Source: a virus (taxonomy: Duplodnaviria; Heunggongvirae; Uroviricota; Caudoviricetes). Taken from it: a stretch of DNA of 9,836 bases. The stretch lies in the IMG/VR virus record IMGVR_UViG_2563366976_000007. The stretch is one strand, 5' to 3'. The stretch's first letter is position 1, and every line of letters starts with the position of its first letter. The notes below the pieces were generated by a model. That model worked only from the letters and a program-made list of their open reading frames with translations, was not told the origin of the DNA and did no database searches. Positions 6,450-6,966 of the stretch are shown piece by piece. The position numbers were made by a program, and so were the translations under genes.

Positions 6450-6455
6450 TCAAAC

Positions 6456-6479
6456 AGCCGGAGAAATCCGGCTTTTTTT
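6456..6479 (+). terminator. Rho-independent terminator
   Basis: GCCGGA-GAAA-TCCGGC hairpin followed by T7, 7 nt after the stop at 6449. Confidence 0.75.
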
Positions 6480-6575
6480 GCACCAGTTGAAACGGTATGG
6501 CGCATTACCGGGTTTTCGTCACGGTCAGGCATAGTTACTATCTGAAACAAACAGACACAACAGAGGAAAAAAACA

Positions 6576-6800
6576 ATGCCGATGAAATTTGATGAGATAT
6601 TAAAACAGCGTGATAAATACCATGCTGACAACATGGAGACGATGAGCATCAATGATTACCGCGCATTCCTGGAGACGGGCGCACTGATTGAAAAGGATCA
6701 GCATGGTTTTGTGAGATGTGCTCTATCCGGTGAAATGCTGGCGGTAAATCCTGAACAGATAGATGCATTGATAGAATTTCTGAAAGAGATCAGAGACTGA
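6576..6800 (+). CDS. Hypothetical protein (74 aa), stand-alone transcription unit
   Basis: ATG 6576 with AGAGGAAA SD. Bounded upstream by the 6456-6479 terminator and downstream by two terminators. Acidic protein (MPMKFDEILKQRDKYHADNMETMSINDYRAFLETGALIEKDQHGFVRCALSGEMLAVNPEQIDALIEFLKEIRD). No recognisable motif. Confidence 0.6.
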   Translation: MPMKFDEILKQRDKYHADNMETMSINDYRAFLETGALIEKDQHGFVRCALSGEMLAVNPEQIDALIEFLKEIRD

Positions 6801-6820
6801 GCCAGCACACAGCACACATA

Positions 6821-6842
6821 GCCGGAGCAATCCGGCTTTTTT
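6821..6842 (+). terminator. Rho-independent terminator
   Basis: GCCGGA-GCAA-TCCGGC hairpin followed by T6. Same stem sequence as the terminators at 6456 and 9092. Confidence 0.7.
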
Positions 6843-6849
6843 GCGCCCA

Positions 6850-6890
6850 AAAAAAGCCCGATAAGGTCAGAGGGTTCTTATCGGGCTTTT
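6850..6890. terminator. Bidirectional terminator-like hairpin
   Basis: A7 run, then GCCCGATAAG (6856-6865), an 11-nt loop, CTTATCGGGC (6877-6886), then TTTT. Perfect 10-bp stem flanked by A-run and T-run. Confidence 0.6.
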
Positions 6891-6966
6891 GCATATGAGG
6901 TTTTTGGATGCACTGGCGTTCGTGATCGGGATAATCATTTCATAATTTGCAACATAACTCAATATC

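What the first reader, a model, noticed from the sequence alone, without database searches (positions are those of the whole stretch)
6450..6900. Orphan 74-aa gene insulated by three terminators between replication and head modules
This is the only gene in the window that appears to be its own transcription unit: a terminator 7 nt after the upstream stop, its own SD, and two terminators after it. Positionally it sits at a module junction, where satellites often carry accessory cargo such as anti-helper or anti-phage factors. The protein is acidic and helical-looking with no recognisable domain.
Basis: inference. Interest (0 to 1): 0.55.

Follow-up and report, generated by a model that had tools for sequence, protein, structure and literature searches.

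The report
Hairpin-bounded small-gene cassette in a phage satellite
The 74-aa gene is real and sits between terminator hairpins in an E. coli phage satellite, but it belongs to a conserved, uncharacterised, satellite-only protein family rather than being an orphan, and nothing shows it has its own promoter.

Summary
The window is an EcCICFT073-type Gram-negative PICI satellite of E. coli. The gene (6576-6800), its Shine-Dalgarno sequence and all three hairpins exist as described.

The gene is not an orphan. It matches PHROG 1957 over its full length, is under purifying selection (dN/dS 0.1-0.2), and has 30-48%-identical relatives in satellites of at least ten Enterobacterales genera. These nearly always lie between the replicase/origin and the capsid genes. 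Two divergent members found no relative in 50,697 phage genomes.

Two of the hairpins are copies of one 22-28-nt element that ends the replication zone in over 120 satellite-like contigs. The third belongs to the lambda-type head module. Hairpin-leader-gene is an exact 364-nt insertion/deletion relative to the prototype EcCICFT073.

The leader has no credible sigma-70 promoter, so an independent transcription unit is not shown. The real cargo slot in relatives lies just downstream of the gene.

A confident AlphaFold model (pLDDT 89) has no structural analogue, and the family is uniformly acidic. It tracks neither the replicase nor the capsid module, so I infer a non-essential protein that binds a helper-phage or host partner. 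This is a useful lead, not a surprise.

The parts
6177..6449 (+). PerC-family (PchE-like) gene, always immediately upstream of the cassette in E. coli
   Evidence: Pfam PerC E = 1e-42. Annotated pchE (ECs1588) in Sakai Sp7. It precedes the 74-aa gene in all 42 E. coli-type loci examined.
6456..6479 (+). Hairpin copy 1 (AGCCGGA-GAAA-TCCGGCT plus T-run): the end-of-replication-zone intrinsic terminator, here following PerC
   Evidence: Folds at -13.2 kcal/mol, z = -3.8. The same element follows PerC, SSB, the 81-aa gene or primase in other satellites.
6480..6575 (+). Conserved 96-nt leader with a Shine-Dalgarno sequence (GAGG 6563-6566); no recognisable promoter
   Evidence: 10% variable columns, against 50-90% just outside the hairpins. 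Best sigma-70 match is 7/12. No notable fold, z = 0.1.
6576..6800 (+). 74-aa acidic protein, PHROG 1957 family (WP_001132079.1; ECs1589 in Sakai)
   Evidence: dN/dS 0.11-0.20. AlphaFold pLDDT 89.3. No fold analogue.
6820..6842 (+). Hairpin copy 2 (GCAA loop plus T-run): terminator that closes the cassette
   Evidence: Islands without the gene carry exactly this copy fused to the same downstream sequence.
6852..6890 (.). Bidirectional 14-15-bp hairpin (A-run / stem / T-run); left boundary of the lambda-type head module, not part of the cassette
   Evidence: I25. Folds at -21.7 kcal/mol (+ strand) and -20.0 (- strand). Present in PMV-1 and CFT073 islands that lack the gene, and absent after the gene in HK97-type islands.
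6968..7029 (+). Head-operon control region: TTGCAT-16-TATAAT promoter (-10 at 6990-6995), palindromes TTGCATAAAATGCAA and CTGATTATAATCAG, then a hairpin at 6999-7018 plus T-run before the 68-aa gene (7052)
   Evidence: Shows that the late module has its own promoter downstream of the cassette.
9087..9114 (+). Hairpin copy 3, after the scaffold-like gene and immediately before the cos-like region
   Evidence: D1. Folds at -14.1 kcal/mol. Window 9111-9195 matches the phage 21 cos / terminase-binding region.

Best explanation
SHOWN. The window is an EcCICFT073-type Gram-negative PICI satellite. The 74-aa gene belongs to a conserved, satellite-restricted small-protein family (PHROG 1957). Its usual place is the last position of the replication zone, just before the capsid genes. 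In E. coli it travels as a 364-nt unit (hairpin - leader - gene - hairpin). That unit is gained or lost precisely at copies of the 22-28-nt terminator hairpin that marks the end of the replication zone. The three terminators are therefore the sum of three units: the PerC unit's hairpin, the cassette's own hairpin and the head module's boundary hairpin.

INFERRED (transcription). The gene has no promoter of its own. It is made at a low, attenuated level by read-through of hairpin 1 from the induced early (alpA to primase to SSB to PerC) transcript. Hairpin 2 and the head-module hairpin then stop that transcript before the separately controlled late operon.

INFERRED (function). The protein is a non-essential, acidic, protein-binding modulator whose partner lies outside the satellite. 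A variable helper-phage protein is the most likely partner and a host protein less likely. It would tune the helper-satellite interaction during induction, and it is neither a DNA-binding regulator nor a structural component.
For: Island type and exact insertion/deletion.

Real gene under selection: dN/dS 0.11-0.20, 16 of 27 variable sites at third codon positions.

Family and synteny across genera.

Absent from 50,697 phage genomes for two divergent members.

The hairpin is a recurrent end-of-zone element: it follows PerC 32 times, SSB 25, this gene 14, the 81-aa gene 7 and primase 3. Megablast breakpoints fall at 6477 and 6841.

No promoter in the leader. Klebsiella homologues follow the origin iterons directly, with no upstream terminator.

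Uniformly acidic: pI 4.6-5.9 in 35 of 36 members, one at 6.7.

The family tracks neither module. P0037 and P0048 are 32% identical yet share the same capsid module and late promoter. P0048 and P0032 are 71% identical with different replicases and capsids. E. coli alleles are 99% identical with D5 or DUF927 primases and with lambda-type or HK97 heads.

Non-essential: the functional EcCICFT073 lacks the gene (PMC6739421).

By analogy, the region after the origin is where PICIs keep helper-directed proteins such as RppA (PMC6739421).
Against: No experiment or binding partner exists. The fold has no analogue, so structure gives no functional support.

Within E. coli the protein is 92-100% conserved, which is unlike a factor in a fast arms race.

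The cf-PICI EcCIEDL933 is reported to have negligible effect on its helper (PMC10085698, citing the cf-PICI study). By inference from Sakai Sp7 it carries the gene, so strong helper interference is unlikely.

A persistent weak profile match to the DNA-recognition domain of N.BspD6I (E = 2e-4 to 8e-4) hints at a nucleic-acid-binding ancestry.

An activator-dependent promoter in the conserved leader cannot be excluded.
Confidence: 0.4

Rival explanations
1. The gene is an autonomous accessory 'moron' encoding an anti-phage or counter-defence factor (for example a small acidic inhibitor or DNA mimic). It would be expressed on its own from the integrated island.
For: Exact presence/absence polymorphism. 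Terminators on both sides. Small, acidic, fold without analogue. The leader is conserved.
Against: No promoter is detectable. No PADLOC hit. Position is conserved in at least ten genera, while the genuinely variable genes lie downstream of it. Net charge of -6 over 74 aa is modest for a DNA mimic.
Confidence: 0.2
2. The gene is the satellite's early-to-late switch. As the last early gene, analogous in position to lambda Q, it would promote read-through of hairpin 2 and the head-module hairpin, or activate the late promoter.
For: It is the last gene before the capsid module in most lineages. Terminators lie between it and the late operon. All satellites carrying it encode a capsid protein. There is a weak match to a DNA-recognition domain.
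Against: Islands without it (EcCICFT073, strain 4750, PMV-1) have the same hairpins and late promoter, and EcCICFT073 is functional (PMC6739421). Klebsiella satellites with near-identical late promoters carry homologues only 32% identical. The family is acidic. Many lineages have no terminator after the gene.
Confidence: 0.15
3. The gene is a replication-zone accessory that acts at the origin or with the replicase or SSB.
For: In Klebsiella, Citrobacter and Enterobacter satellites it starts 25-60 nt after the last origin iteron. The AAA_25-linked homologues form one clade at 60-93% identity.
Against: In E. coli three genes separate it from the origin, and the same allele occurs with D5 and DUF927 primases. 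P0048 and P0032 are 71% identical with different replicases. In Arsenophonus it follows TerL.
Confidence: 0.1

Closest known systems
RppA/RppC of EcCICFT073-type PICIs (redirecting phage packaging; PMC6739421)
   Same: A small satellite protein encoded downstream of the origin in the same island type. It works by binding a helper protein (TerS). Divergent alleles occur among islands.
   Different: No sequence similarity: PDB searches, which include RppC, give no hit. The position differs, since Rpp lies after the head genes while this gene lies before them. The window's island has a Nu1-like 180-aa TerS where EcCICFT073 has RppA. No partner is known for this gene.
Phage morons: gene cassettes with their own promoter and terminator inserted between core genes (own knowledge: Juhala, Hendrix and colleagues, 2000)
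   Same: A single small gene, terminator-flanked, present or absent between otherwise collinear elements, with sharp boundaries.
   Different: No promoter was found. The family is positionally conserved across genera rather than sporadic. The boundaries are repeated copies of one terminator hairpin.
SaPI post-origin interference genes (ppi, ptiA/ptiM/ptiB, cpm) of Gram-positive PICIs (own knowledge; alluded to in PMC6739421)
   Same: Small proteins encoded just after the replication origin of a satellite, acting on helper proteins.
   Different: No homology and a different host phylum. Interference has not been demonstrated here, and the cf-PICI that carries the gene barely affects its helper (PMC10085698).
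N-terminal DNA-recognition domain of the type IIS nicking endonuclease N.BspD6I (PDB 2ewf and others)
   Same: It is the top PDB profile hit with three family alignments, covering the beta-sheet and the start of the C-terminal helix.

Membership tests
PHROG 1957 (uncharacterised family of phage and satellite proteins) | Full-length match to the family HMM | tested here: met
   E = 2.3e-42 over residues 1-74 of 74, profile positions 1-74 of 82. Distant homologues P0037, P0048 and P0042 also match, at 1e-25 to 2e-18.
Moron (autonomous accessory cassette) | Own promoter upstream of the gene | tested here: not met
   No site at the 9/12 threshold. The best relaxed match is 7/12, and 29% of random 110-nt windows reach 8 or more. 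An activator-dependent promoter cannot be excluded.
Moron (autonomous accessory cassette) | Terminator directly downstream | tested here: met
   Hairpin 2 at 6820-6842, -12.5 kcal/mol, z = -3.6.
Moron (autonomous accessory cassette) | Present or absent between otherwise collinear relatives, with sharp boundaries | tested here: met
   L003 against L002, and the window against EcCICFT073, differ by an exact hairpin-to-hairpin unit of 364 nt.
Moron (autonomous accessory cassette) | Expressed from the uninduced element | not testable with these tools
   Needs RNA-seq or a reporter. No paper in the library mentions ECs1589.
Known anti-phage defence systems (PADLOC-DB 2.0) | Match to a defence-protein model | tested here: not met
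   No hits at E up to 1 for the window protein, and none for three distant homologues.
Rpp (PICI packaging-redirection proteins) | Sequence similarity to RppA/RppC, or a TerS-like N-terminal DNA-binding domain | tested here: not met
   No PDB sequence or profile hit to RppC. No fold match.
Winged-helix / type IIS recognition-subdomain-like DNA binders | Significant sequence or structural similarity, and a basic DNA-binding surface | tested here: inconclusive
Intrinsic (Rho-independent) terminators | G+C-rich stem-loop followed by a U-tract on the transcribed strand | tested here: met
   Hairpins 1, 2 and 3 have 7-9-bp stems, GNRA loops and 6-8 U's. The 6852-6890 hairpin has only 4 U's on the + strand. 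Termination efficiency is not testable here.
Gram-negative PICI (EcCICFT073 type), as the context of the gene | Co-oriented int, alpA and primase plus origin, followed by a late zone of captured head genes; about 10-15 kb; chromosomal | tested here: met
   Integrase, PF05930 AlpA, D5 primase, iterons at 5225-5462, SSB, PerC, gpE-like capsid protein, gpD-like decoration protein and Nu1-like TerS. The island lies between yljB and clpS. It is collinear with EcCICFT073.
Capsid-forming PICI (cf-PICI), as the context of the gene | Own portal, TerL and head-tail adaptor/connector genes | tested here: not met
   The window's island ends one gene after TerS and has no portal or TerL. The same cassette does occur in true cf-PICIs such as Sakai Sp7.

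The most novel reading that the evidence does not exclude
PHROG 1957 could be a satellite-specific protein with a previously unseen fold that is a semi-core part of how capsid-encoding satellites (cf-PICIs and lambda-type PICIs) of Enterobacterales exploit their helpers. It might, for example, bind a variable helper late-phase protein to couple satellite replication to capsid production or tail capture. The repeated terminator hairpin would then serve as a recombination 'linker' that shuffles such genes between satellites.
Probability: 0.2. Interest if true: 0.65.

Novelty: new member of a known kind. Interest (0 to 1): 0.42.

Why it matters
cf-PICIs and related PICIs occur in a large share of Enterobacteriaceae genomes, and most of their small genes have no known role. 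This family is conserved in position across at least ten genera and found no relative in the phage collection. It has a confident predicted fold with no known analogue. It also comes with natural isogenic controls, because islands with and without the exact 364-nt cassette exist, including the well-studied EcCICFT073 and EcCIEDL933. That makes it a cheap and well-defined target for finding a new helper-satellite interaction. The hairpin-bounded architecture also gives a concrete example of how gene-plus-terminator units accrete at a satellite's module boundary.

Tried and rejected
1. AlpA-mediated antitermination as the reason for several terminators inside the operon. Rejected: the P. aeruginosa antiterminator AlpA is an eight-helix, Q21-like protein (PMC9371919), whereas the island's AlpA is a 69-aa PF05930 protein. 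Only the name is shared.

3. Domain libraries. Pfam gave only sub-threshold DUF7189. NCBIfam and PADLOC gave nothing.

4. RNA elements. An Rfam E-value search of the whole window found nothing relevant, and the leader has no significant fold.

5. Phage homologues. tblastn of the window protein and of P0037 against INPHARED found none.

6. Literature. No paper in the library mentions ECs1589. The EcCICFT073 per-gene lambda-interference screen could not have tested the gene, because that island lacks it. The cf-PICI mutagenesis text does not identify it.

7. Spurious matches. The 1383-aa repeat protein P0019 and the Pseudomonadales locus L079 (an MMPL transporter containing 'GGLLWIDHHD') were discarded as chance matches.

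8. An integron-like attC reading of the hairpins was considered and dropped. No IntI-type integrase is present, and the hairpins are short canonical terminators.

9. Co-variation with the replicase or capsid module, as a way to find an internal partner, gave no association.

Full report
**What the window is.** The 9.8-kb window is 100% identical to part of an ~11-kb island between yljB/cspD and clpS in E. coli 23CRST038. On one strand it encodes an integrase, a 69-aa PF05930 AlpA, an Icd-like protein, a DUF4222 protein and a D5-type primase. These are followed by an iteron-rich region (GGTGAACAG repeats, 5225-5462), an 81-aa protein, SSB and a PerC-family protein. Then come the 74-aa gene, a 68-aa protein, a lambda gpE-like major capsid protein, a gpD-like decoration protein, a scaffold-like protein and a Nu1-like TerS. 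This is the organisation of Gram-negative PICI satellites described in PMC10111431: an integration zone, a dynamic zone, a replication zone and a late zone. It is collinear with the prototype EcCICFT073. It is not a capsid-forming PICI, because it lacks portal and TerL genes.

**Checking the observation.** The ORF at 6576-6800, a GAGG 9 nt before the ATG, and the three hairpins are all present.
- Hairpins 1 and 2 fold at -13.2 and -12.5 kcal/mol, with GNRA loops and 6-7 U's.
- The third (6852-6890) folds at -21.7 kcal/mol. It has only 4 U's on the + strand and 7 on the - strand, so it is bidirectional.
- Hairpins 1 and 2, and a third copy at 9093, are the same 22-28-nt sequence. Three matches are found against none expected.

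**The gene is real but not an orphan.** Alleles differ mainly at third codon positions (16 of 27 variable sites), and dN/dS is 0.11-0.20. The protein matches PHROG 1957 end to end. An exhaustive HMMER search and a profile search recover about 40 clusters of 66-106-aa proteins at 30-48% identity. The conserved core includes Y28, D41, H43, A56, E60, Q61, D63, L65 and L69. No Pfam, NCBIfam or PADLOC model matches above threshold. Two divergent members find nothing in 50,697 phage genomes.

**The cassette and the hairpins.** Megablast matches in E. coli genomes break off at window 6477 and 6841, the ends of hairpins 1 and 2. Direct comparison shows a precise insertion/deletion.
- The HK97-type island of strain 4750, which lacks the gene, has one GCAA-loop hairpin. 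It is followed by exactly the sequence that follows hairpin 2 in an O157:H7 island that carries the gene.
- EcCICFT073 reads PerC, one hairpin, then the 6852-6890 hairpin and the head promoter. That is the window minus the 364-nt unit.
- The 6852-6890 hairpin is present in islands lacking both PerC and the gene (PMV-1). It is absent downstream of the gene in HK97-type islands, so it belongs to the lambda-type head module.

The repeated hairpin occurs in more than 120 viral-type contigs. Among 92 occurrences it follows PerC (32), SSB (25), the 74-aa gene (14), the 81-aa gene (7), primase (3) or an unidentified gene (11). The only internal copy is the one between PerC and the 74-aa gene. So it is the recurrent end-of-replication-zone terminator, and the triple insulation is the sum of three adjacent units. 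In complete E. coli genomes this PerC type occurs at 821 places and the cassette at 594. In every E. coli-type locus examined the gene follows PerC, and it pairs with either a lambda-type or an HK97-type head module and with either a D5 or a DUF927 primase.

**Is it a separate transcription unit?** The 98-nt leader is as conserved as the coding region, with 10% variable columns against 50-90% just outside the hairpins. However, it has no sigma-70-like promoter. The best match is 7/12, and 29% of random 110-nt windows score 8 or more. It also has no significant RNA structure. The head module, in contrast, has TTGCAT-16-TATAAT with two perfect palindromes.

In Klebsiella and related satellites the homologue begins 25-60 nt after the last origin iteron, with no terminator upstream. 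A terminator right after the gene is seen in about half of the lineages, mostly where a convergent reverse-strand gene follows. An upstream terminator is seen only in E. coli. I therefore infer that the gene is the distal gene of the early transcript and is reached by read-through of hairpin 1. This is not shown.

**Synteny outside E. coli.** Homologues lie between the replicase/origin and the capsid genes in many satellites:
- Klebsiella and Citrobacter satellites with AAA_25 or DUF927 replicases and a ClpP-capsid fusion gene.
- cf-PICIs of K. variicola and Ewingella, and one from a metagenome.
- cf-PICIs of Enterobacter, Kluyvera, two Serratia species, Phytobacter, Leclercia, Pectobacterium and Gilliamella.

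There are three exceptions. A 16-kb circular cf-PICI-like element of Arsenophonus has the gene after TerL. A small rolling-circle element has it next to the integrase. An apparent remnant lies near dusB in Erwinia.

The gap between the homologue and the capsid gene varies from 0.25 to 1.6 kb. It often holds reverse-strand genes, including a 170-aa PHROG 5789 protein and a 254-aa protein. That gap is the cargo hotspot, and the homologue is its conserved left border.

A weak but reproducible profile hit to the recognition domain of N.BspD6I appears with all three alignments. The whole-sequence E-value is 2e-4 to 8e-4, but per-domain values are 0.04-2. This remains an unconfirmed lead.

The family is uniformly acidic: pI is 4.6-5.9 in 35 of 36 members and 6.7 in one, which argues against classical DNA binding. 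Pairwise identities follow neither neighbouring module:
- P0037 and P0048 are 32% identical, although their satellites share a near-identical capsid module and late promoter.
- P0048 and P0032 are 71% identical despite different replicases and capsids.
- E. coli alleles are 99% identical across both primase types and both head types.

A partner outside the satellite is therefore more likely than an internal one. Deep divergence between satellites of the same host species points to a variable helper-phage protein rather than a conserved host one.

The gene is non-essential, because EcCICFT073 is fully functional without it (PMC6739421). For the same reason, that study's per-gene lambda-interference screen never tested it. 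The cf-PICI EcCIEDL933 corresponds by size and gene order to Sakai Sp7, where the gene is ECs1589 next to pchE. It is reported to have negligible effect on its helper (PMC10085698), so strong interference is unlikely. No paper in the library mentions ECs1589.

**Verdict.** This is not an orphan in a private transcription unit. It is a member of a conserved, satellite-only family, carried in E. coli on a hairpin-bounded 364-nt cassette at the boundary between the replication zone and the late zone. My preferred mechanism is a non-essential, acidic, helper- or host-binding modulator made by attenuated read-through of the early transcript, with confidence about 0.4. The rivals are autonomous anti-phage or counter-defence cargo (0.2), an early-to-late switch (0.15) and a replication accessory (0.1). 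It is a new, uncharacterised member of a known kind, namely small accessory proteins of phage satellites. Interest is moderate, mainly because natural isogenic with/without pairs and the EcCICFT073/EcCIEDL933 genetic systems make the question directly testable.

Noticed in passing
window 5225-5462: A dense array of direct and inverted GGTGAACAG / CTGTTCACC repeats lies immediately after the primase gene. It is probably the satellite's iteron-type replication origin. Klebsiella relatives have different iterons (gtaacccac, taagtgcggca) at the same position.
   Followed up: partly
window 9111-9195: The sequence directly after hairpin copy 3 and before the Nu1-like TerS gene is 83-96% identical to the cos / terminase- and IHF-binding region of phage 21 and related lambdoid phages. 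It is probably the island's cos site.
   Followed up: partly
window 9294-9836, and L058 2660-3094: This island has a 180-aa Nu1-family TerS where the otherwise collinear EcCICFT073 has the 144-aa RppA. The two islands therefore probably use different packaging-hijack strategies with the same head genes.
   Followed up: no
window 6968-7029: Upstream of the head operon there is a promoter with a perfect TATAAT overlapping two perfect palindromes (TTGCATAAAATGCAA and CTGATTATAATCAG). It is followed at once by a hairpin plus T-run (6999-7029) before the 68-aa gene. The layout is operator-like and attenuator-like, and it suggests regulated late transcription.
   Followed up: partly
window 7052-7258, and L050 8388-8582: The small gene heading the capsid operon (PHROG 3255 in E. 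coli, PHROG 4934 in Klebsiella) is weakly similar between very different satellites (31% over 51 aa). It might be a conserved late-operon leader protein or regulator.
   Followed up: partly
window 6406-6534: RefSeq annotates a 42-aa 'hypothetical protein' here, and in some genomes a frameshifted 'trigger factor' pseudogene. It overlaps the PerC 3' end and runs straight through hairpin 1, so it is almost certainly an annotation artefact.
   Followed up: no
L047 8294-8806 (- strand); also L053, L061, L067, L068: A 170-aa reverse-strand protein (PHROG 5789, hydrophobic C-terminus, no PADLOC hit) recurs convergently right after the homologue in several genera. In L067 a 254-aa reverse-strand gene lies beside it. 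This marks an accessory-gene hotspot between the replication zone and the capsid genes.
   Followed up: partly
window 6177-6449: The PerC/PchE-like protein also gives a sub-threshold match to the ANR (AraC negative regulator) family (E = 3e-4). This echoes the report that a PICI PerC homologue represses rather than activates LEE (PMC11773190).
   Followed up: no
L004 3647-3700, compared with window 9093-9160: In the PMV-1 island the sequence after the SSB-proximal hairpin (TTTTTTACGGGTCCTCC...) resembles the sequence after hairpin copy 3 in the window (TTTTTTTTACGGGTCCTTCC...). This suggests the hairpin and its flank have recombined between different positions in these islands.
   Followed up: no
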